Positions 6,092 to 13,705 of a stretch of DNA of 30,566 nt are shown here, one piece after another. The notes beneath the pieces were generated by a model. It was not told the DNA's origin, did no database searches, and saw only the letters and a list, made by a program, of their open reading frames with translations. Every line of letters starts with the position of its first letter. Position 1 is the first letter of the stretch. This DNA comes from an uncultured Planctomycetales bacterium. Lineage in GTDB: Bacteria > Omnitrophota > Gorgyraeia > Gygaellales > Profunditerraquicolaceae. The stretch is from positions 1-30,566 of the forward strand of contig CAZDUF010000004.1 in the NCBI GenBank assembly GCA_964508555.1. The letters run 5' to 3'. A program made the position numbers and the translations under genes.

Positions 6092-6146
6092 AACTACCCC
6101 ATATCCGCAAACCGGTCAACCGGCAAACCGGCTAACCAACTACCCC
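6092..6146. repeat. 8-bp tandem repeat flanked by a 9-bp direct repeat
   Basis: AACCGGTC (6110-6117), AACCGGCA (6118-6125), AACCGGCT (6126-6133), plus a degenerate fourth unit AACCAACT; AACTACCCC at 6092-6100 and 6138-6146. Confidence 0.7.
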
Positions 6147-7804
6147 GGCCCCAACACCCGCAACACCTCGGCAACGTTGGTCGCGCCGAAGACTATCTTC
6201 TCCCACCCGTCGTCGTACATGAATGTCATACCCTGGGCGCGACAAGCCTTGATGATTTCGGTGGAACTCGCCTTCTCGACCGTGAGCCTGCCGATCTGAG
6301 GAGTCATCTCCATAATCTCGAATATCCCCACCCTGCCGCTGAAACCGGTGTGCAGGCAATCCTGACAGCCGTGCGCCTCCCACACCTCCACTTCCTTGTC
6401 GGCATAAGGTGCTTCCTTGAACAACTTCTTTGATTGCTTAGATTTACATTTCTTGCATAATACCCTGACAAGCCGCTGCGCAACCACGCCGTTCAAGCAA
6501 GACGCGATCAGGAATGGTTCAATACCCATGTCGACTAATCTGGTTACTGCAGACGCGGCGTCATTCGTATGGAGTGTTGAAAATACCAGGTGTCCGGTGA
6601 GAGCCGCCTGGATTGCGATTGTTGCGGTTTCCAGATCCCTTATCTCCCCCACCATAATGATATCGGGATCGTGTCTGAGTATCGACCGCAACCCGTTGGC
6701 GAATGTGAGATTAACTTTCTGATTCACCTGAATCTGCCTGCAGAAATCAAGGTGGTACTCAACGGGATCCTCAATGGTAATAATATTTTTCTCGACTGAT
6801 TGAATAATCGAAAGCGACGCATAGAGTGTTGTCGTCTTACCGCTTCCTGTCGGTCCGGTCACCAGGATAATCCCTGACGGTTTCCTGATCAGCTGTTCGT
6901 ACCTCTCCAGATGTTTCTGTGACATTCCTAACTGATTGAGTGTCAAAACTTTCTTGTTCTGTTTCAATAACCGCAAAACGATGCTTTCCCTCTCAATCGT
7001 AGGGATAACCGATACACGCACATCCAGGGCAGTTCCGTCAAGCTCGACATTGAATCTTCCATCCTGGGGCTGCCTGCGCTCTGCGATATCCAGGTTCGCC
7101 ATGATCTTGATGCGGGATACAAAAGCGTTATATGCGGTCGATTCAGGAGGCGTAATCTCTTTGAGCACGCCGTCGATACGGAGCCGCAGGCGCATCTTGT
7201 CGCGTTGGGCTTCGATATGAATGTCAGACGCTCCGAACTTGAGCGCCTGCAGCAACAGGAGATTTACCGCTTCGATGATGGACGGTTTGGAGAATTCCTC
7301 TTTCAGATAACCGTCATCTATCTTGAGAGCAGGGTGAGCTGATTCCTGACGCTCGTGTCTTTGCCCTTCTCTCCTGTCGCAGCATCTGCTCAAGACATCG
7401 ATGAGCTCATCCTCCCTGACCAGGTACGGCTTGATAAAGAGTCCGGTGCGAAAGCGCAGCTCATCATATATAGAGGAATCCAGCGGATCGAGCACGCCGA
7501 CCGCAAGCTCGAAATTATCCTTGAATAACGGGATAACCTTCTTCTCCCAGAGCAGCTCCGCGGGCACCAGCGCCAACAGCGCTTTGTCCGGAGAAAAAGT
7601 ATTCAGCCGGAATTCTTCGAGATTCAGATGCTTGCCGAGAAATCCGGTCAGCTTCTCTTCGGAGATGACTTTCAGCTGACGCAGGGCCTGTACCAGCGAC
7701 ACGGAGCTGCGCTGCTGCTCGAGCCGAATGGTCTGCATCTGCGCGGGCGATACGATCCCATCGCGTTCCAGCTGTTCTTCAAGATTCAATTGCTGCATAA
7801 TCAC
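6140..7804 (-). CDS. gspE: GspE/PilB-family assembly ATPase
   Basis: Walker A GPTGSGKTTT, TIEDPVEY, LRHDPDIIMVGEIRD, TGHLVFSTLHTN, tetracysteine motif CKKC...CQDC, and an N-terminal MshEN/N1-like region. Confidence 0.95.
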   Translation of the reverse strand: MIMQQLNLEEQLERDGIVSPAQMQTIRLEQQRSSVSLVQALRQLKVISEEKLTGFLGKHLNLEEFRLNTFSPDKALLALVPAELLWEKKVIPLFKDNFELAVGVLDPLDSSIYDELRFRTGLFIKPYLVREDELIDVLSRCCDRREGQRHERQESAHPALKIDDGYLKEEFSKPSIIEAVNLLLLQALKFGASDIHIEAQRDKMRLRLRIDGVLKEITPPESTAYNAFVSRIKIMANLDIAERRQPQDGRFNVELDGTALDVRVSVIPTIERESIVLRLLKQNKKVLTLNQLGMSQKHLERYEQLIRKPSGIILVTGPTGSGKTTTLYASLSIIQSVEKNIITIEDPVEYHLDFCRQIQVNQKVNLTFANGLRSILRHDPDIIMVGEIRDLETATIAIQAALTGHLVFSTLHTNDAASAVTRLVDMGIEPFLIASCLNGVVAQRLVRVLCKKCKSKQSKKLFKEAPYADKEVEVWEAHGCQDCLHTGFSGRVGIFEIMEMTPQIGRLTVEKASSTEIIKACRAQGMTFMYDDGWEKIVFGATNVAEVLRVLGPG

Positions 7805-7807
7805 CGT

Positions 7808-10735
7808 TTAGTTTCCGGATGCGATAATCTCCTCCCCTGACGGAGAGAGGACTTTCGCGGTCACGAAGATCATCAGATTTTTGCGCTGCACGACGTCGGA
7901 ATCTTTCTTGAAAAGGTTCCCCAGGACGGGAAGACTCCCCAGAAGCGGAACCTTGGTCACGGTCTTGGTGCGGCTCTCCTTGACGAGACCGCCGAGAACG
8001 ACCGTGTCCGCGGAGTTGACGACGACGGTCGTCGAGAGATTACGCGAGGTGAACAACGGCAGCGTGACATTCCCGGAATACTGAAAGGCGTCGGCCGTGG
8101 CCTCGCTCACTTCGGGAATAAGTGACAGGTTGATGGTCTTGCGGTCTGCGCCGACGGTGGGAACCACTTTCAGGATGATGCCGACGTCCCTGCGCAGGAA
8201 ATCCTTGGGCACGTTCTGATAGGCGGTCTCCCCTGCGTCGTTAAAATCTCCGTCACCGTTCACGTCAAACTGCACGATCTCGAATTCATACCGCGTGGGA
8301 TAGATCCATTCGTCGACAACCTTGATCGACGCCATCTGGCTGTTCAGCGTCGTGATACGAGGACTCGAAAGGGTCTTTATGCGCTTGGTCTCCTCGAGGG
8401 CGTGCAGCACGACCTGGAATTGCGGATACGTGAGCACTCCCTTGTAGGTAAAATTCAACCCTTCCGACGCGCGCGTAAAGGACGTGAAATCGAACCCGCT
8501 GTTCGCTGCCAGCCCTTGCGCGAAGTTGCCGTCTTCCTTGTCGAAGGCGAAATCGTCGTTGAGCTTGAGCTCGATACCGAAATCCTTGGTATCGGTGATA
8601 TCGATCTCGATGAACCGCGCCTCGATCAACACCTGCACCGGCTCGATATCCAAAGAATACAGCATCTCCTCGAGCATCTGCAGATTCTGCGGCGTGTTAC
8701 GCGCAATCAGGGCATTAAGCCTTTTATCATAGGTAAGCTTGGCATCAGCCGGCCAGGCAACCACTTCTTTAAGTGTATCTTCAATGGTGTAAATCTTGTT
8801 GATCTGGGCGGACGATCCCCCCAGCCCGGTCGAGCCGCCGGAAACCGGCGTGAAATCGGTAAACAGTCCGCCGCCTCTCAAGAGATAATACACCCGCGTC
8901 TCCATGGCCTCGTTTGCGACCTCTTCGGGATCGGCGATCCAGACGATTTCCTTGTCGATGCGGTACACGAGGCCGAGGCTTTTGGTGAGGTACTTGATCA
9001 CTTCGATGATGTTGGCGTCGTCGAAGCGCGCGGTCACGGTGGGGTCGAGATTCAACACCTTCTGCGACGCGACAAAGTTTACCCCGGACTCCTGCGAGAG
9101 AAATTTGACGACAGATTTCAATCCTACCTTGTCGAAATCCATGGTCACGCGTTTCTCCTGGAGCTTTCTCCGGATAATCGGGGTTTCGATGAGAGGCGTC
9201 ACCGACTGTTTTTCTATCTTCTTCGGCGGGTCGACGTACGGAGGAATCTGCGTTTCATACACCTCGCGGATCATGGTGTCCTCCGTATGGACGATATCGG
9301 TCTTCAGCACACCTCTGGCCTGCTGTTCCTGAGCGGCGAGCTTCTTCTCACGCGCCTGCTCGATAAAACGCTTTGCCTCAGATGTGTACTTCGTGCGCGG
9401 ATTGCCTTCGAGAGAAACCACCCGCTCGAATCCTTTGATCGCCTCGTCATACATGCCTTCGTTATACAGGCGTTTGGACACCTGCCAGAGCGCATCCACC
9501 CTGCGCATCTTCTCCGCTTCATCGTGCGCCTTCATCGCCGCGTCAACGTCATCGGCAGCCAGGGCAACGCCGCGTTCCTGGCGGCCTTCATATACTTCTG
9601 CTATTTCCGCCCCATCGTCGTCAAGCAACGCGTCTTGTTCAGCCAATAATGCCTGTAAACGCCGCTGGCGATCGTCGGTCTTCGTCGCAGGCGCACTCCG
9701 TGGCGTGACCGTCCGTTCGTCCTTTGCCAAACGGCGCCGCTCGCGCAGAGCATCCTCTTTCTCCTGCAGCCGGTATTCTTCTTCCATCTGCTCTATCTCG
9801 GCGCGCCGCTTCTGCATCTTATCTTCGCGCTGGCGCAGCAAATCTTCTTCGCGCGCGGCGAGCATCTCTTCTTTGCGCATCTGCTCCTGGCGCAACTGTT
9901 CCATGCGCTCCTCGCGCGCGGCGCGCTCCGCGTCAAGCTTAGCCAGACGCTCGGCGTCTTTCTTCAAACGCTCGACGTCTTTAATCCGCTGCGCCTCCTG
10001 CGCATCAAGCAACGCCCGCTGCTTCTGGGCCTCCATCTCGGTGCGCTTCTGAATCTCGGCAATCTGCAGTCGCCGTTCCTCTTCTTTCTGTTTCAACTGC
10101 AGCTGCGCCTCCCGGGCCTTGCGGTCGGCTTCTTTTCGGGCGCTCTCAATCTCAAGTTTCAATTTGCGTTCCCGTTCTTCAATCTCTTTTTTACGCTGCG
10201 TAACCGCCGTCTGACGCTCGAGCTCAAGCTTTCGCACAAGCTGCGTGCGCTCCAGTTCACGCTGTTTCGCCGCCTTCTGCGCCTCATCCTGCAGCTGCTT
10301 CAGTCGGGCTTCTTTTTCCGCTGTTTCTTTGGCACGCGCGGACGCGCTTTCACTCAGCATGCTCGTGAGATTGCTGTCGGCAGCGGGCACGGCAGTCTTG
10401 ATACAGGACTCGCTCGGAGGCTTGGTGCCGATCTTGGCAAGCAGATTCTCGGCATCTACGCGCGTCGGTTTGTATCCCTTGCCCTCGCGCCATTGCCGCA
10501 AAGAACTATCGGTATTCAGAACCGCAAGCACATAATTGAGTTTCTCGCGCGCGCGGTCGTAACAGCCCTTCTGGTAGAAAATCAACGCCTCACGATATGC
10601 GCTGTCGACTCCCTGGCTCGCTTCGAGCACGCGGTCGTCTTGCACGTCGTACGCACCTGCGAACCCGAACACACCCGCCATCAGGCACGCGACACACAGA
10701 CTGACACACGTTTTGCCCATGGAATATCTAGCCAT
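7808..10735 (-). CDS. gspD: Secretin (GspD/PilQ family) with long N-terminal coiled coil
   Basis: C-terminal secretin motifs QVLIEARFIE, TLSSPRITTLN, DVGIILKVVP, DTVVLGGLV, KVPLLGSLPVLGNLFK, LMIFVTA; N0/N3-like domains; signal peptide. Confidence 0.92.
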   Translation of the reverse strand: MARYSMGKTCVSLCVACLMAGVFGFAGAYDVQDDRVLEASQGVDSAYREALIFYQKGCYDRAREKLNYVLAVLNTDSSLRQWREGKGYKPTRVDAENLLAKIGTKPPSESCIKTAVPAADSNLTSMLSESASARAKETAEKEARLKQLQDEAQKAAKQRELERTQLVRKLELERQTAVTQRKKEIEERERKLKLEIESARKEADRKAREAQLQLKQKEEERRLQIAEIQKRTEMEAQKQRALLDAQEAQRIKDVERLKKDAERLAKLDAERAAREERMEQLRQEQMRKEEMLAAREEDLLRQREDKMQKRRAEIEQMEEEYRLQEKEDALRERRRLAKDERTVTPRSAPATKTDDRQRRLQALLAEQDALLDDDGAEIAEVYEGRQERGVALAADDVDAAMKAHDEAEKMRRVDALWQVSKRLYNEGMYDEAIKGFERVVSLEGNPRTKYTSEAKRFIEQAREKKLAAQEQQARGVLKTDIVHTEDTMIREVYETQIPPYVDPPKKIEKQSVTPLIETPIIRRKLQEKRVTMDFDKVGLKSVVKFLSQESGVNFVASQKVLNLDPTVTARFDDANIIEVIKYLTKSLGLVYRIDKEIVWIADPEEVANEAMETRVYYLLRGGGLFTDFTPVSGGSTGLGGSSAQINKIYTIEDTLKEVVAWPADAKLTYDKRLNALIARNTPQNLQMLEEMLYSLDIEPVQVLIEARFIEIDITDTKDFGIELKLNDDFAFDKEDGNFAQGLAANSGFDFTSFTRASEGLNFTYKGVLTYPQFQVVLHALEETKRIKTLSSPRITTLNSQMASIKVVDEWIYPTRYEFEIVQFDVNGDGDFNDAGETAYQNVPKDFLRRDVGIILKVVPTVGADRKTINLSLIPEVSEATADAFQYSGNVTLPLFTSRNLSTTVVVNSADTVVLGGLVKESRTKTVTKVPLLGSLPVLGNLFKKDSDVVQRKNLMIFVTAKVLSPSGEEIIASGN

Positions 10736-10737
10736 GA

Positions 10738-11820
10738 TTACTCATCCTCCCGTTTGATCACGGTCAAGAAATTATCGCTTCCTTCAAGGATAACTTCAGT
10801 CTCCGAGAAATTTTTCAGGCGGAAATTATCGAACCGATCTCCCACCGACAGAAAAAGCGTCTCCTTGCGCATCGCATCTTCGATCACCGCTACCTGCTTG
10901 GTGCGCAGGAGCGCCCGCCCCTTGTAGAAAAACCGCTGCGCGGGCTTTTCTTCCTCCGGAGGCTGCGTCACGTCCTCCTCGACACCCGTCTGTTTCACCG
11001 GTATGAGAAACGGGCTTTTGCTGCGCAAGAGCGACACCGCAGTGTCGATCCCCGCGGGATACGATTCATCGGGGACCTGCGCCACGGTTATCTTTCCGTC
11101 TATTCCTTGTATATCAGACAAAGAAACGCTTAATGTCGAATATTTCAGCGAGACGTACACGCTCTCCGGCTCGACCCGGACTTTAAGCGCCTGGCTGCAC
11201 AGTTTCGGAACGATCCCGTTCATGCGGATCAGAAAATCCATCACCGTCGCGTGCGGAAACGCCAATTCCATTTCGGCGGGAACTTCGCGGGTGTCGGGCA
11301 GCGCGCTCTCTTTTGTCGGAGGAAGCGGTTTTGCCAGCGACACGTCGGCTCCCGACGCGACGGCCAACTCGGCGACTGAACGCATCGCGTAGAGCTGTCC
11401 CAGAAGCAGCGCCGCATCCGACTCAGACGGAAGTTTATCCGTGAACGAGAAACCGGAAAAATCCGTTTGCCGGGAATCAGCAAGGGCTTTTAATTCGGTT
11501 GAGGAGCGGTTCAACTCCTCGGCGAAGAGAATGCTCATATCGTAATTCGAGCGCGTCCATTTCGCGCGCGGGTCAAACAGCGCGCCGAGAGCTGCAAGGC
11601 GGACCGCGCTCGATGAAACCGCGGCGCGCAGGTCAACGACTTTCTTTTCGCTAAAGGCCCCGAGCGCGTCATCGAGCTGCGCGGCGCTGGCGGCTGCGCG
11701 GCGCGCGTACGCTTCCTCGCGCGCGCGCAGCACAAACGCGCTCAGGCACAGGCAGAGTACAACCGCGAGTAACGGCTTCCATGCAGGGGCGCGCGCGGTA
11801 GCAGCAGAAGCGGCGATCAT
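10738..11820 (-). CDS. PilO-like protein with C-terminal PilP/GspC-like domain
   Basis: N-terminal TM helix, helical linker, ferredoxin-like PilO pattern (EMELAFPHATVMDFLIRMN...LKVRV), Pro/Glu linker, then YKGRAL...AVIED...FLSVGDRF...VIL. Position between the pilMN-like gene and the secretin. Confidence 0.55.
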   Translation of the reverse strand: MIAASAATARAPAWKPLLAVVLCLCLSAFVLRAREEAYARRAAASAAQLDDALGAFSEKKVVDLRAAVSSSAVRLAALGALFDPRAKWTRSNYDMSILFAEELNRSSTELKALADSRQTDFSGFSFTDKLPSESDAALLLGQLYAMRSVAELAVASGADVSLAKPLPPTKESALPDTREVPAEMELAFPHATVMDFLIRMNGIVPKLCSQALKVRVEPESVYVSLKYSTLSVSLSDIQGIDGKITVAQVPDESYPAGIDTAVSLLRSKSPFLIPVKQTGVEEDVTQPPEEEKPAQRFFYKGRALLRTKQVAVIEDAMRKETLFLSVGDRFDNFRLKNFSETEVILEGSDNFLTVIKREDE

Positions 11821-13274
11821 GTGGATATCCCCTGCCGGCGCCGCATATCGAATCTGATTTTGAATTCGATTGCCGCTTGCTCATCCTGTGCCGCGCCTGC
11901 TCCTCCGTTTCCTCCGGAACCGGAGGAAACGACCTTGACGTCGCTGACCGATTCCGTGCCGCGCAACTTCACGATGAACTGGTTGATCTCGTTGTAATCG
12001 GCAGAGGTGCCGCTGATGTACAACTCTAATCCTTTTTCCCCTTCTTTGAGCTCAAACTCCTTGATCTCGATGCCGGTTGACGCCCCTGCGGAAACAGCGG
12101 CCATCGCTTTCAGGAACAGTTCCTGGTTATCGATCTTCGACTGCAGGAATTGCGTCGCCGCGTCGAGGCGAGCTTTCTTCTCTTTGAGATTCTTGATCTC
12201 GGGAATATACGCCGCAGCCTGCGCGCATGTGCGGGCGGCACGCGAACGCGCATCCTGCAGACGGAACACGGAACGCACGTTCACGAATACGAGCCCCGCG
12301 CACGCCGCGGCCAGAGAATACACCGCGAGTTTTTCAGCGTAATTGATGCGGCTGGCGATCCGCTCCGTGCGCACCTGTTCGCCGATCAGGTTCACGTACA
12401 CAGTCGACGACGCGCGAAGGCACGTCAGCCCGTAACCGATGCTGGAACCGATGGAATACGGATCGGACGGCAACACGGCTTTCGGGCAGGAAATTTTACG
12501 CAAGGGGTTAACCTGAATAATTTCGCAGCCGGGGAAATGTTCCCGCAACGCGCTCACGATCGATGCGGGATAATTCGCTCCGCTTAAATACACGCGCATC
12601 GAAGACTTCGACGACTTGGACGGATTCTGCAGATAATGCGTGTTGACCACGCGTTTGACTTCCTGCAGAAACGCATCCGAAGACTGCGCGTTGTCGGTGA
12701 GCGAGCTTCTGCCGATAGGAAGCGGATATGTCCAAAGCCTCCTGTCTTCATGAAACATGATATCGGATACGCGGCCGCGCATATTTAATAAAAGAAACTT
12801 TCCCTTCTCACCGTAATTGTGCAGAATCAGATTATACAATCCGTACGCCGCGGGTACGACTCCGGACACGGAGAATCCCGCAGAGGACAGGCGCGTGCGC
12901 GTCTCTTCGACAATCTCTCTGCGCGCGGCAACAAGCGTGATCACCGGTCCCGAAGGCACCACCTGCCAGAAGCATTCATCGAGTTTGAGCGGCAGGTTCA
13001 GTTTCTGGAGCGCGGGAAGGATGTCCCTGCGAACATCGCGAGCGCGGGAAAGCGCAGGAGTCGACTGGATATGTTTTAAGAAAAGACTCGGAACCGGAAG
13101 GCTCGTGACCGTTACCTGATTTTTGTTGACGTTCAGCGCGGAAAGATTTTCTGCGGAAGGGACAACATGCTGCGAAGTCAATACCACCTTGTTGTGGCGC
13201 AGGCTGAGCTCAGTCACGACAGTCGCGTCACTATCTATATCAATGCTCAAAATTGTCTTTGGTTTTAAGCCCAT
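11817..13274 (-). CDS. pilM: PilM-PilN-like fusion (pilus assembly/alignment protein)
   Basis: ILSIDID start, actin-like region (FLLLNMRGRVSDIMF, RVYLSGA, GSSIGYGL), VNLIG, TM helix, coiled coil, PilN-like LYISGTSADYNEINQFIVKL. Start placed at ATG 13274; 13325 is also possible. Confidence 0.7.
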   Translation of the reverse strand: MGLKPKTILSIDIDSDATVVTELSLRHNKVVLTSQHVVPSAENLSALNVNKNQVTVTSLPVPSLFLKHIQSTPALSRARDVRRDILPALQKLNLPLKLDECFWQVVPSGPVITLVAARREIVEETRTRLSSAGFSVSGVVPAAYGLYNLILHNYGEKGKFLLLNMRGRVSDIMFHEDRRLWTYPLPIGRSSLTDNAQSSDAFLQEVKRVVNTHYLQNPSKSSKSSMRVYLSGANYPASIVSALREHFPGCEIIQVNPLRKISCPKAVLPSDPYSIGSSIGYGLTCLRASSTVYVNLIGEQVRTERIASRINYAEKLAVYSLAAACAGLVFVNVRSVFRLQDARSRAARTCAQAAAYIPEIKNLKEKKARLDAATQFLQSKIDNQELFLKAMAAVSAGASTGIEIKEFELKEGEKGLELYISGTSADYNEINQFIVKLRGTESVSDVKVVSSGSGGNGGAGAAQDEQAAIEFKIRFDMRRRQGIST

Positions 13275-13406
13275 CGCCGCCTTTCGTATTCGCCGCGTGA
13301 ACCGTGACGCATCAACCAAACACATTGCGCGCATCAATGAGCGAAGTATGCTGCGCGCTTCAATCTGTCAACGAACTGAGTCTTATCCTCCTATATATAT
13401 TATTTA

Positions 13407-13436
13407 TTATTAAAACATGGTTCCGGAATTTGTCAA
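13407..13436 (-). promoter_or_regulatory. Candidate sigma70 promoter for the pilM-secretin-gspE operon
   Basis: Perfect TTGACA (13436-13431) followed by an AT-rich tract; the -10 hexamer is ambiguous. Confidence 0.4.
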
Positions 13437-13705
13437 TACATCTTTGCAAGTAATCGCGCTCATTTTTTTAGACGCGATACAGCATACACCAACAACCCGG
13501 TACACTTCACACAATCCATGGACAGCATATCGAGATACGGTGGTCGCAACAGTCAACGCATCTCACATCAAGAGAATGGATGCACAGAATCGCGCGCAGC
13601 GCGCATGTTGACAGTCTGAAATGCTGACATGTCGAATTGGTGCTGGCAGCTTGTTATCACGCACTGCATTTCACAGAGATTTAACTTATTGATAAATAAT
13701 ATTTT

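What the first reader, a model, noticed from the sequence alone, without database searches (positions are those of the whole stretch)
7808..10735. Secretin carrying a charged coiled coil of about 210 residues between TPR-like helices
Seen: after the signal peptide come a short TPR-like segment, an E/K/R/Q-rich heptad stretch (about 10355-9716), a second TPR-like segment (VDALWQVSKRLYNEGMYDEAIKGFERVV), and then the usual N-domains and barrel. Known: classical GspD/PilQ N-termini are N0-N3 or AMIN domains, not long coiled coils. Inference: as an oligomer it could form a periplasmic stalk of about 30 nm (210 aa x 0.15 nm) spanning an unusually wide periplasm, or act as a TolA-like tether.
Basis: partly seen in the sequence, partly recalled or inferred. 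Interest (0 to 1): 0.65.

Follow-up and report, generated by a model that had tools for sequence, protein, structure and literature searches.

The report
Omnitrophota secretin with charged single-helix arm
The outer-membrane channel protein of a pilus/secretion machine in an uncultured freshwater Omnitrophota bacterium carries a detachable N-terminal arm with a 214-residue, highly charged rod-like helix that looks like a stable single helix rather than a coiled coil and changes length wildly between close relatives, so it is a lineage-typical spacer and probably not a ruler of the cell envelope.

Summary
The 975-aa ORF (7808-10735, minus strand) is real. It is the secretin of a conserved T2SS/T4P-like operon of an Omnitrophota bacterium.

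**Layout:** signal peptide, a 4-helix TPR-like head, a 214-residue E/R/K/Q/A-rich helix (residues 127-340), one canonical TPR with capping helix, then N0, N1 and the barrel.

**Not confirmed:** the "heptad" part. Hydrophobic 3.5-residue periodicity is absent (z 0.3, against 21 for tropomyosin). Opposite charges are enriched at i+3/i+4 and not at i+7. AlphaFold2 draws one uninterrupted helix of about 32 nm. This is the signature of an ER/K-type single alpha-helix.

**Across orthologous, syntenic loci:**
- The tract runs from near zero to 515 contiguous residues and grows by recent tandem duplications.
- The PilMN- and PilOP-like partners stay constant in length.
- All four short forms inspected have the arm as a separate upstream gene, always broken between TPR helix B and the capping helix.

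A stalk that spans a wide periplasm is therefore unlikely. A separable spacer arm fits better.

TPR-secretin fusion is already described for Akkermansia PilQ; I found no description of the charged rod. I rate it a new variant of a known kind, of moderate interest.

The parts
7808..10735 (-). Whole secretin gene, 975 aa plus stop codon
   Evidence: ORF list and translation. Orthologues sit at the same operon position.
10652..10735 (-). Signal peptide, residues 1-28 (MARYSMGKTCVSLCVACLMAGVFGFAGA|YD). It looks like a signal peptidase I type; no lipobox.
   Evidence: Read from the sequence. AF2 helix 2-26. Homologues have equivalent N-termini. No signal-peptide predictor was available.
10427..10645 (-). 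Head module, residues 31-103: four helices with a TPR-like motif (YxxALxxYxxGxYxxA...WR...P)
   Evidence: pLDDT above 90 in the full model and 90.2 when modelled alone. Conserved in 14 homologues with invariant Y, R and P. Foldseek gives only weak TPR/MIT-like matches at E > 0.1. No PDB sequence hit.
10358..10426 (-). Flexible linker, residues 104-126 (Pro/Ser/Ala-rich)
   Evidence: pLDDT below 50 over residues 112-130.
9716..10357 (-). Charged helix, residues 127-340 (214 aa, about 32 nm): ER/K-type single-alpha-helix-like rod
   Evidence: AF2 draws one uninterrupted helix, pLDDT 50-84. Composition and periodicity tests. Charge periodicity at 7-8 residues, z 2.8. Only two tiny DNA repeats.
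9557..9715 (-). Linker region, residues 341-393, with two short acidic helices
   Evidence: pLDDT below 50 at 339-352 and 376-393.
9248..9556 (-). Canonical TPR (helices A and B, about residues 411-443) plus capping helix that continues as a long helix (449-496). The loop at 444-448 (LEGNP|R) is the point where gene fission recurs in relatives.
   Evidence: Pfam TPR_2. PDB consensus TPR at 1.5e-14, covering the last repeat plus the solvating helix. pLDDT above 90. Split genes.
9152..9247 (-). Conserved Pro-rich connector, residues 497-528 (PPYVDPP...LIETPIIRRKL)
   Evidence: Consensus of 120 homologues.
8933..9151 (-). N0-like domain, residues 529-601
   Evidence: Pfam FecR_C at 24.4 bits (equal to the cut-off) and STN at 18.4. 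pLDDT 93-97. Foldseek hits to XcpQ N0-N1 and the EscC periplasmic domain at E about 1e-5.
8639..8902 (-). N1/N3-type ring domain (Secretin_N), residues 612-699
   Evidence: Pfam Secretin_N at 22.7 bits, below the 28.2 cut-off. AF2 alpha/beta fold.
7811..8638 (-). Secretin barrel and gate, residues 700-975
   Evidence: Pfam Secretin 129 bits, E = 1.5e-37. Foldseek matches to PilQ, InvG, BfpB, PulD and GspD at E = 1e-26 to 1e-20.
10738..13337 (-). Upstream partners: PilMN-like fusion (11817-13337) and a 360-aa PilOP-like protein (10738-11820)
   Evidence: Pfam PilN and NCBIfam Amuc_1101-like, both weak. Position and length are conserved in orthologous loci.
6140..7804 (-). Downstream assembly ATPase (MshEN + T2SSE)
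   Evidence: Pfam T2SSE at 3.3e-135 and MshEN at 2e-17.

Best explanation
The gene encodes the outer-membrane secretin of a type IV filament (T2SS/T4P-like) machine of an Omnitrophota bacterium.

Its constant core covers about residues 449-975: capping helix, Pro-rich connector, N0, one N-domain and the barrel. This core is a normal secretin. In front of it sits an accessory periplasmic 'arm', made of:
- a small TPR-like head;
- a flexible linker;
- a 214-residue polyampholyte helix that behaves in sequence terms like a stable single alpha-helix (ER/K type), not a heptad coiled coil;
- one canonical TPR that docks on the core's capping helix.

Shown here:
- the domain layout;
- the single-helix signature;
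- the extreme, duplication-driven length variation of the rod among orthologues;
- the invariance of the partner proteins;
- the recurrent fission of the arm into its own gene, always at the loop between TPR helix B and the capping helix.

Inferred:
- The arm is a separable accessory subunit that stays attached through the TPR and capping-helix contact.
- With 12-15 protomers per secretin ring, it forms a crown of semi-rigid charged rods.
- These rods hold the head modules tens of nanometres from the channel base, lying obliquely or laterally in the periplasm.
- The rod works as a spacer whose exact length is not under constraint, not as a ruler of periplasm width.
- What the heads bind (peptidoglycan, neighbouring machines or an assembly factor) is unknown.
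For: Secretin core:
- Pfam Secretin scores 129 bits.
- Foldseek matches PilQ 6w6m at 7e-26 and other secretins.
- The operon holds GspF, pseudopilins, a GspK-like protein, PilMN-like and PilOP-like proteins and the ATPase.

Rod as a single helix:
- AF2 draws one helix over residues 127-340.
- Hydrophobic 3.5-residue periodicity has z 0.3, against 21.4 for tropomyosin and 12.8 for Lpp.
- Best a/d occupancy is 0.53, against 0.86-0.98 for the controls.
- Opposite-charge pairs have z +2.3 at i+3, +2.5 at i+4 and -0.9 at i+7. This is the same direction as a synthetic E4K4 helix and opposite to the coiled-coil controls.
- The same holds in 38 tracts of homologues, with mean z of 0.7, 2.3, 3.4 and -1.8.
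- Charge periodicity at 7-8 residues has z 2.8.

Length freedom:
- The core is about 451 aa throughout, while the N-terminal extension runs from 68 to 1182 aa.
- The tract runs from 0 to 839 aa in total and up to 515 aa contiguous.
- Against the closest relative (92% identical core), the tract differs by indels of 14, 36 and 8 aa.
- Tandem duplications of 29-132 aa reach 98% identity.
- P0049 and P0050 have identical cores and differ by a 73-aa duplication.

Partners are invariant:
- Across 8 syntenic loci, PilMN-like proteins are 470-506 aa and PilOP-like 356-369 aa, while the tract runs from 36 to 555 aa. No significant correlation.

Separability:
- In L001, L005, L006 and L091 an upstream gene ends at ...LEG/LEK.
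- The secretin gene then has its own, unrelated signal peptide before ...KYTP.
- In L001 stop and start overlap as ATGA.
- The core tree needs at least 5 changes between the fused and short states.
Against: - No experiment or oligomer model was available. Single-helix character is inferred from sequence statistics and a monomer AF2 model with only moderate confidence (pLDDT 50-84, with a dip to 50-55 at residues 221-250).
- The tract holds 18% strong hydrophobic residues, more than textbook ER/K helices. Pairing between neighbouring protomers is therefore not excluded.
- The functional part (a crown of spacer rods, heads binding a partner) has no direct evidence.
- One orthologue (P0009) does without the rod. 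Its contribution may be small or conditional.
- The partner-length argument rests on 8 loci.
Confidence: 0.55

Rival explanations
1. First reader's model. The tract is a true coiled coil that oligomerises between protomers. It forms a rigid stalk of about 30 nm perpendicular to the membranes and bridges an unusually wide periplasm.
For: The helix is long, uninterrupted and free of Pro and Gly. It holds 18% hydrophobic residues. A few homologues show some local 3.5/3.6-residue periodicity: P0029, P0031, P0033 and P0018, with z 2.8-5.2.
Against: - The window's tract has no heptad signal, whereas the controls give z 13-21.
- a/d occupancy is 0.53.
- Indels and duplication periods are not multiples of seven: 36, 8, 29, 58, 59, 66 and 73 aa.
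- Tract length varies from 36 to 555 aa among syntenic orthologues whose PilMN-like and PilOP-like partners are constant.
- A 515-residue helix would be 77 nm long, in cells reported to be about 200 nm across.
Confidence: 0.1
2. Built-in pilotin or assembly chaperone. The TPR modules do the job that separate TPR lipoproteins (PilF/PilW/Tgl/TadD) do elsewhere, guiding the secretin to the outer membrane or helping it multimerise. The charged rod mainly keeps the unassembled monomer soluble and apart, acting as an entropic or electrostatic bristle.
For: - No pilotin-like gene is present in the operon.
- TPR fused to the secretin is general in this PVC/Omnitrophota family.
- For Akkermansia PilQ the N-terminal three-TPR domain was described as 'resembling the pilotin proteins' (PMC4960237).
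- The arm can be a separate protein, as pilotins are.
- A bristle role would explain why exact length is unconstrained.
Against: - There is no lipobox, so the arm is not outer-membrane anchored.
- Only one canonical TPR and one TPR-like head are present.
- The arm attaches at the N0 end of the secretin, far from the barrel and S-domain region where known pilotins bind.
- This rival is compatible with, rather than exclusive of, the spacer-arm model.
Confidence: 0.18
3. TolA-like inner-to-outer-membrane tether. The N-terminal hydrophobic segment is an uncleaved signal anchor, so each protomer is tied to the inner membrane by the long helix.
For: A hydrophobic N-terminus is followed, in many homologues, directly by the charged helix. 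In overall composition this resembles the long charged helix of TolA domain II. That comparison rests on knowledge of TolA and of PMC2572700, which mentions TolA-like charged helices fused to AMIN domains.
Against: - The N-termini look like ordinary cleavable signal peptides with small residues at -3 and -1.
- In split forms the secretin half acquires its own signal peptide and so needs no tether.
- Length variation of 20-80 nm is incompatible with a fixed membrane-to-membrane distance.
Confidence: 0.07
4. Largely neutral low-complexity expansion. The rod is a tolerated, slippage- and duplication-prone linker with no length-dependent or specific function of its own.
For: - It is hypervariable even between identical cores.
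- It is nearly absent in P0009.
- It is less conserved than the head, the TPR and the core.
Against: - Of 47 complete close homologues, 29 keep at least 100 contiguous residues.
- All tracts keep helix-compatible, Pro/Gly-free, near-neutral composition with significant i/i+4 charge pairing. This indicates selection for a helical rod.
- The rod is retained in the split-gene forms.
Confidence: 0.1

Closest known systems
PVC-type PilQ secretin, Akkermansia muciniphila Amuc_1098 (NCBIfam NF042912; Ottman et al. 2016, PMC4960237)
   Same: Both are outer-membrane secretins of a type IV pilus-like cluster with a TPR-containing N-terminal region in place of AMIN domains. The same broad family turns up across Verrucomicrobiota, Kiritimatiellia, Lentisphaerota and Omnitrophota.
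   Different: The window's protein scores 164 bits against a family cut-off of 750, and only over the C-terminal barrel. The non-Omnitrophota relatives have at most about 40 contiguous residues of charged helix, and two I read carry acidic or Pro/Ala-rich regions instead. A long ER/K-like rod is not reported for Amuc_1098.
Classical secretins PilQ (T4aP), GspD (T2SS), V. cholerae competence PilQ (PDB 6w6m)
   Same: N0, a ring domain and the gated double-walled barrel are shared. So is the operon with an ATPase, a platform protein, pseudopilins and PilM/N/O/P-like partners.
   Different: Scores fall below the equivalog cut-offs: GspD 186 against 351, PilQ 150 against 284. There are no AMIN domains and no N2 domain. 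The N-terminal arm of about 450 residues has no counterpart in any solved secretin.
TPR pilotins and secretin partners: PilF/PilW/Tgl, TadD (RcpA-TadD, PDB 8odn)
   Same: In both cases a TPR protein is associated with a secretin. In split relatives the arm is a separate exported protein next to the secretin gene.
   Different: The arm is not a lipoprotein. It has one canonical TPR rather than 3-6. It is joined to the N0 end of the secretin, and it carries a long charged rod.
ER/K single alpha-helix (SAH) domains (myosin VI/X, caldesmon and others; general knowledge of the class)
   Same: High E/K/R content, i to i+4 opposite-charge pairing, no hydrophobic seam, a single long helix in the prediction, and use as a spacer between folded modules.
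   Different: The tract has more Leu, Ala and Gln than textbook SAHs (18% strong hydrophobic residues). It is periplasmic and sits on an oligomeric outer-membrane channel. It is untested biophysically.
TolA domain II and CpoB/YbgF (periplasmic long helix; coiled coil plus TPR)
   Same: All are periplasmic and combine a long charged helix with TPR modules (comparison from general knowledge).
   Different: There is no retained membrane anchor, no TolA C-terminal domain, no heptad trimerisation signal and no homology detected.

Membership tests
Secretin superfamily (Pfam PF00263) | C-terminal secretin domain above the Pfam gathering score, with a secretin barrel fold | tested here: met
   129.2 bits against a cut-off of 27.5. 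Foldseek matches 6w6m PilQ at 7e-26, and InvG, BfpB, PulD and GspD at 1e-25 to 1e-20.
Secretin superfamily | Periplasmic N0 and ring (N1/N3) domains before the barrel | tested here: met
   FecR_C scores 24.4, at its cut-off. STN (18.4) and Secretin_N (22.7) fall below theirs. AF2 gives alpha/beta domains at pLDDT 90-97. Foldseek matches XcpQ N0-N1 and the EscC periplasmic domain at E about 1e-5.
T2SS GspD (NCBIfam TIGR02517 equivalog) | Whole-protein score at or above 351.35 | tested here: not met
   186 bits, matching profile positions 298-591 only.
T4aP PilQ (NCBIfam TIGR02515) | Whole-protein score at or above 284.35 | tested here: not met
   150.2 bits.
T4aP PilQ | N-terminal AMIN domain(s) | tested here: not met
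   No AMIN hit in Pfam at E <= 0.01.
Amuc_1098 family PilQ (NCBIfam NF042912) | Whole-protein score at or above 750 | tested here: not met
   164.4 bits, covering the C-terminal 565-803 of the profile only. I treat it as a distant relative, not a member.
Coiled coil | Heptad (3.5-residue) periodicity of hydrophobic residues, with a/d positions mostly apolar | tested here: not met
   z 0.3 globally and 1.0 locally, against 21.4 for tropomyosin and 12.8 for Lpp. a/d occupancy 0.53, against 0.86-0.98.
ER/K-type single alpha-helix (SAH) | Very high E/K/R content with enriched i to i+3/i+4 opposite-charge pairs and no hydrophobic seam | tested here: met
   53% charged residues. z is +2.3 at i+3, +2.5 at i+4 and -0.9 at i+7. 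Family means are 2.3, 3.4 and -1.8. Charge periodicity at 7-8 residues has z 2.8. AF2 draws a single helix.
ER/K-type single alpha-helix (SAH) | Monomeric, non-cooperatively melting helix in solution | not testable with these tools
   Needs CD, AUC or SAXS on the recombinant tract.
TPR repeat | 34-residue helix-turn-helix matching the TPR consensus (second segment, residues 411-443, plus capping helix) | tested here: met
   Pfam TPR_2 scores 26.5 against 27, which is borderline. Designed consensus TPR proteins match at E = 1.5e-14, aligned to the last repeat plus the solvating helix.
TPR repeat | The same, for the first segment (head, residues 31-103) | tested here: inconclusive
   No Pfam or PDB sequence hit. 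The model is confident (pLDDT 90), but Foldseek gives only weak TPR, TPR-chaperone and MIT matches at E 0.2-1.5.
TPR pilotins (PilF/PilW/Tgl/TadD) | Outer-membrane lipoprotein (lipobox Cys) with an array of several TPRs | tested here: not met
   The signal peptide has no canonical lipobox. Only one canonical TPR is present.
TolA | Retained N-terminal membrane anchor and a TolA C-terminal domain | tested here: not met
   No TolA domain hit. The N-terminus looks cleavable. Cleavage itself is not testable here.

The most novel reading that the evidence does not exclude
Alternating TPR heads and length-tunable ER/K single-helix rods are a distinct, modular periplasmic device of Omnitrophota secretins. 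It works in cis or, after fission, in trans through a split TPR and capping-helix joint. It forms a radial crown that spaces, anchors or corrals the pilus/secretion machine in cells about 200 nm across. Rapid duplication and deletion of the rod would tune its reach between lineages.
Probability: 0.25. Interest if true: 0.65.

Novelty: new variant of a known kind. Interest (0 to 1): 0.45.

Why it matters
Secretins are among the best-studied outer-membrane machines. Every solved example has compact N-domains or AMIN domains at the periplasmic end.

Here the secretin carries 12-15 copies per ring of a charged rod 20-80 nm long. The rod's length is free to drift, and it can be detached as its own gene at one precise joint. 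That adds a new architectural class.

It also offers a natural 'split TPR' docking joint, and a possible bacterial, periplasmic use of single alpha-helix spacers, which so far are known mainly from eukaryotic motor proteins.

Omnitrophota are ultra-small and largely thought to be host-dependent or predatory, and type IV pili are central to that lifestyle (PMC10066038). How their pilus machine is built therefore matters for understanding attachment to hosts or prey.

The negative result is useful too. The tempting idea that the rod measures a wide periplasm does not fit the comparative data.

Tried and rejected
- **Pfam and NCBIfam on the tract:** no family hit in residues 127-340.
- **PDB sequence search with the head module:** nothing at E <= 1.
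- **Foldseek with the whole model:** only the secretin core matched.
- **Self-BLAST for internal repeats:** it failed because off-diagonal hits were culled under the full-length self hit. I replaced it with a diagonal identity scan.
- **GTDB genome scan with the family alignment:** It was useful for taxonomic spread only.
- **The genome search and the fetch from genomes:** I could not look for paralogous secretins in this genome, nor test whether rod length covaries with other envelope-spanning proteins.
- **Literature searches:**
  - Omnitrophota plus secretin.
  - Omnitrophota plus type IV pili.
  - Secretin plus coiled-coil, TPR, PilQ and domain architecture.
  - Two Omnitrophota papers read for these terms.
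  - None described the charged rod.
- **Sequencing runs:** only one DNA run of a freshwater metagenome holds the gene, and no RNA run was found. There is therefore no expression evidence.
- **Lipoprotein reading of the N-terminus:** rejected, because neither Cys sits in a lipobox and the closest relative lacks them.


Full report
**1. The observation**

The window holds a 975-codon ORF on the minus strand at 7808-10735.

*Domain hits.*
- Pfam finds a Secretin domain at residues 779-963 (129 bits).
- It also finds a sub-threshold Secretin_N (653-699), an N0-type STN/FecR_C match (533-598), and a TPR_2 at 414-444 that scores 26.5 bits, just under its 27 cut-off.
- NCBIfam matches GspD, PilQ, MshL and the Akkermansia Amuc_1098 family, all far below their cut-offs and mainly over the C-terminal half.

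*The tract.*
- A sliding-window count shows an E/K/R/Q fraction of 0.5-0.68, with no Pro or Gly, from about residue 127 to 340.
- No other long ORF in the 30.5-kb window has such a tract.

*The start.* The ATG lies 2 nt after the stop of the upstream gene, as in the orthologous loci. It gives a normal signal peptide. A database gene call that starts at Met19 loses it.

**2. Structure prediction**

AlphaFold2 with a 120-sequence alignment gives mean pLDDT 79. In order along the chain it predicts:
- a helical head (residues 32-103, pLDDT above 90);
- a disordered linker (104-126);
- one uninterrupted helix (127-340, pLDDT 50-84, lowest at 221-250);
- a poorly ordered acidic segment (341-393);
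- a TPR pair (about 411-443, pLDDT above 90);
- a long helix (449-496);
- a Pro-rich connector;
- two alpha/beta domains and the barrel.

At 0.15 nm per residue the long helix is 32 nm.

Foldseek against the PDB matches only the core: V. cholerae competence PilQ 6w6m at 7e-26, then InvG, BfpB, PulD and GspD. Nothing solved covers the N-terminal 450 residues.

The second TPR aligns to the last repeat plus the solvating helix of designed consensus TPR proteins at E = 1.5e-14.

The head, modelled alone, is a confident four-helix module (pLDDT 90). It has no PDB sequence match. Its only fold matches are weak ones to TPR proteins, TPR chaperones and MIT domains at E 0.2-1.5. 'TPR-like' is therefore plausible for the head but unproven.

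**3. Coiled coil or single helix?**

Those control sequences may hold small errors.

| Measure | Tract 127-340 | Tropomyosin | Lpp |
|---|---|---|---|
| Hydrophobic 3.5-residue periodicity, z | 0.3 | 21.4 | 12.8 |
| Best heptad-register a/d occupancy (with Ala) | 0.53 | 0.86 | 0.98 |
| Opposite-charge pairs at i+3, z | +2.3 | +1.1 | -1.1 |
| Opposite-charge pairs at i+4, z | +2.5 | +1.1 | -1.1 |
| Opposite-charge pairs at i+7, z | -0.9 | +2.4 | +2.0 |

All values are.
- The tract's charge pattern has the same sign as a synthetic (E4K4)n helix and the opposite sign to both coiled-coil controls.
- Charge periodicity peaks at 7-8 residues, z 2.8.
- The same holds for 38 tracts of at least 120 residues in homologues. 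Mean z is 0.7 for local 3.5-residue periodicity, 2.3 for i+3, 3.4 for i+4 and -1.8 for i+7. A few tracts (P0029, P0031, P0033, P0018) do show some amphipathic periodicity.
- The tract is a near-neutral polyampholyte, with a family mean of +0.06 charge per residue.

This is the sequence signature of ER/K-type single alpha-helices, which I know from the general literature. The 18% content of Leu, Ile, Met and Val is higher than in textbook cases, so weak pairing cannot be excluded.

**4. Relatives**

A search with the core (residues 500-975) found 302 proteins. The close ones are all from Candidatus Omnitrophota MAGs, at 55-91% identity, and range from 537 to 1632 aa in length.

*Length of the extension.*
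- In an alignment of 120 of them the core from Leu525 onward is constant at about 451 aa. The part before it ranges from 68 to 1182 aa.
- Of 47 complete proteins with at least 60% core identity, 29 have a contiguous charged tract of at least 100 residues. The median is 161 and the maximum 515.
- One protein, P0009 (73% core identity), has head and TPR but almost no rod.

*How the length changes.*
- The closest relative, P0003 (92% identical core), differs by indels of 14, 36 and 8 residues inside the tract.
- Many homologues carry recent tandem duplications with periods of 29, 58, 59, 66, 73, 112, 116 and 132 residues, up to 98% identical.
- P0049 and P0050 have identical cores and differ by one 73-residue duplication.
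- The window's own tract has no recent duplication. At DNA level it shows only a 24-bp repeat (2.4 copies) and a 15-bp repeat (2.3 copies).

*Wider taxonomic spread.*
- A scan of species-representative genomes shows the wider family in Kiritimatiellia, Verrucomicrobiota, Lentisphaerota and Auribacterota.
- Some of these records carry other or generic labels, such as Planctomycetia, 'PVC group' or 'uncultured bacterium'.
- Those relatives often have N-terminal extensions of 300-640 aa, but at most about 40 contiguous residues of charged helix.
- Two examples I read (P0112, P0115) have acidic or Pro/Ala-rich regions before their TPRs.
- The long rod is therefore a trait of an Omnitrophota subgroup.

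**5. Genomic context and the ruler idea**

The gene order is conserved in every locus I fetched:
- GspF;
- a pseudopilin;
- a GspK-like protein with a lamin-tail domain;
- usually a small HTH gene;
- a PilMN-like fusion;
- a PilOP-like protein;
- the secretin;
- the MshEN-type ATPase;
- a TPR membrane protein;
- a GspJ-like pseudopilin, an Ig-like protein and a fibre protein.

These are therefore orthologues.

Across eight such loci the total charged tract runs from 36 to 555 residues. The PilMN-like protein stays at 470-506 aa and the PilOP-like protein at 356-369 aa. There is no significant rank correlation.

Those two proteins must bridge the inner membrane to the secretin's N0 ring, so the periplasmic distance is evidently similar in all these species. 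A perpendicular 515-residue helix would be 77 nm long. Omnitrophota cells are reported to be about 0.2 micrometres across (PMC10066038). The rod therefore cannot be a fixed axial strut that matches periplasm width.

**6. Gene fission**

Nine close homologues are 'short' (547-581 aa). All four that I inspected (L001, L005, L006, L091) are split genes.
- The upstream gene encodes a signal peptide, a head in some, the charged tract, and TPR helices A and B. It ends at ...LEGEER*, ...LEGEKQNEKKN*, ...LEKSN* or ...LERKE*.
- The secretin gene then starts with its own signal peptide and resumes at (RI)KYTP..., the capping helix.
- The four new signal peptides are unrelated in sequence.
- In L001 the stop and start overlap as ATGA.
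- On a tree of the cores, the fused and short states need at least five changes. Several forks are weakly supported. The P0004 clade (100) and P0007, which sits inside a 99-supported clade with fused members, are well separated from each other.

Recurrent fission at one loop shows that the arm is a separable module. It also suggests that TPR helices A and B dock on the capping helix without a covalent link.

**7. What it most likely is**

Putting this together, the protein is a normal secretin core that carries an accessory arm: head, rod and TPR joint.

I commit to the following reading. The rod is a semi-rigid, charged single-helix spacer whose exact length is not constrained. With 12-15 protomers per ring it gives a crown of rods that hold the small head modules tens of nanometres from the channel, lying obliquely or laterally in the periplasm.

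What is shown and what is inferred, together with the rival readings and the results that would refute each, is set out in the fields above. My confidence is about 0.7 for the structural description and about 0.35 for the crown-of-spacers function.

**8. Comparison with what is known**

Ottman et al. 2016 (PMC4960237) described Akkermansia PilQ (Amuc_1098, 907 aa) as having an N-terminal BamD-like domain with three TPRs 'resembling the pilotin proteins'. A TPR-secretin fusion in this superphylum is therefore already known.

I found no description of the charged rod, its length variation or the split forms. I checked Seymour et al. 2023, a 2026 preprint on Omnitrophota genomes and three keyword searches. 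Paywalled literature was not searched.

Earlier notes of this scan, which I read after forming my view, report similar TPR-plus-ER/K arms on other Omnitrophota secretins, and also free-standing arms. They agree with this reading but are unchecked AI notes, not evidence.

**Verdict.** This is a real feature and a new variant of a known kind. It is typical for its lineage rather than a one-off, and of moderate interest.

Noticed in passing
L001:6312-7060; L005:2188-2780; L006:3-480; L091:3-830: Gene fission recurs at the same loop of the TPR (…LEG | …KYTP). Each time a new, unrelated signal peptide appears on the secretin half. In L001 stop and start overlap as ATGA. How a stop, a start and a signal peptide arise together at one spot is unexplained.
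   Followed up: partly
window 8228-8263 (residues 825-836, NGDGDFNDAGET): An acidic Dx[DN]xDG-like loop inside the barrel region is nearly invariant across the Omnitrophota family (consensus xDxNGDGDFxDAGET). It resembles a calcium-binding loop. Three homologues (P0041, P0056, P0057) have replaced it.
   Followed up: no
window 13338-13705: Most orthologous loci have a 60-83-aa HTH/MerR-like gene between the GspK-like gene and the PilMN-like gene. The window has a 368-bp gap there with no convincing minus-strand ORF. The closest relative (L088) also has no gene called in the equivalent gap.
   Followed up: partly
window 10681-10735: A public gene call for this protein starts at Met19 (957 aa) and so loses most of the signal peptide. 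The 975-aa start fits the operon spacing and gives a proper signal peptide.
   Followed up: yes
P0049 versus P0050; P0022; P0017; P0085: Tandem duplications of 59-116 residues at 95-98% identity lie inside the charged or TPR arm. They occur even between proteins with identical cores, which points to ongoing expansion and contraction.
   Followed up: partly
window 8402-9649 and 9384-10052, plus strand: Long antisense ORFs (415 and 222 aa) run opposite the secretin gene. They are Arg/Ser/Leu-rich mirror products of the GC-rich charged region and have no sign of being genes.
   Followed up: no
L007:842-3809: In the more distant locus with the 1632-aa secretin (P0062), the alignment proteins are separate small genes (PilMN 567 aa, then 71, 175 and 172 aa) instead of one PilOP-like fusion. 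An IS91-type transposase lies nearby.
   Followed up: no
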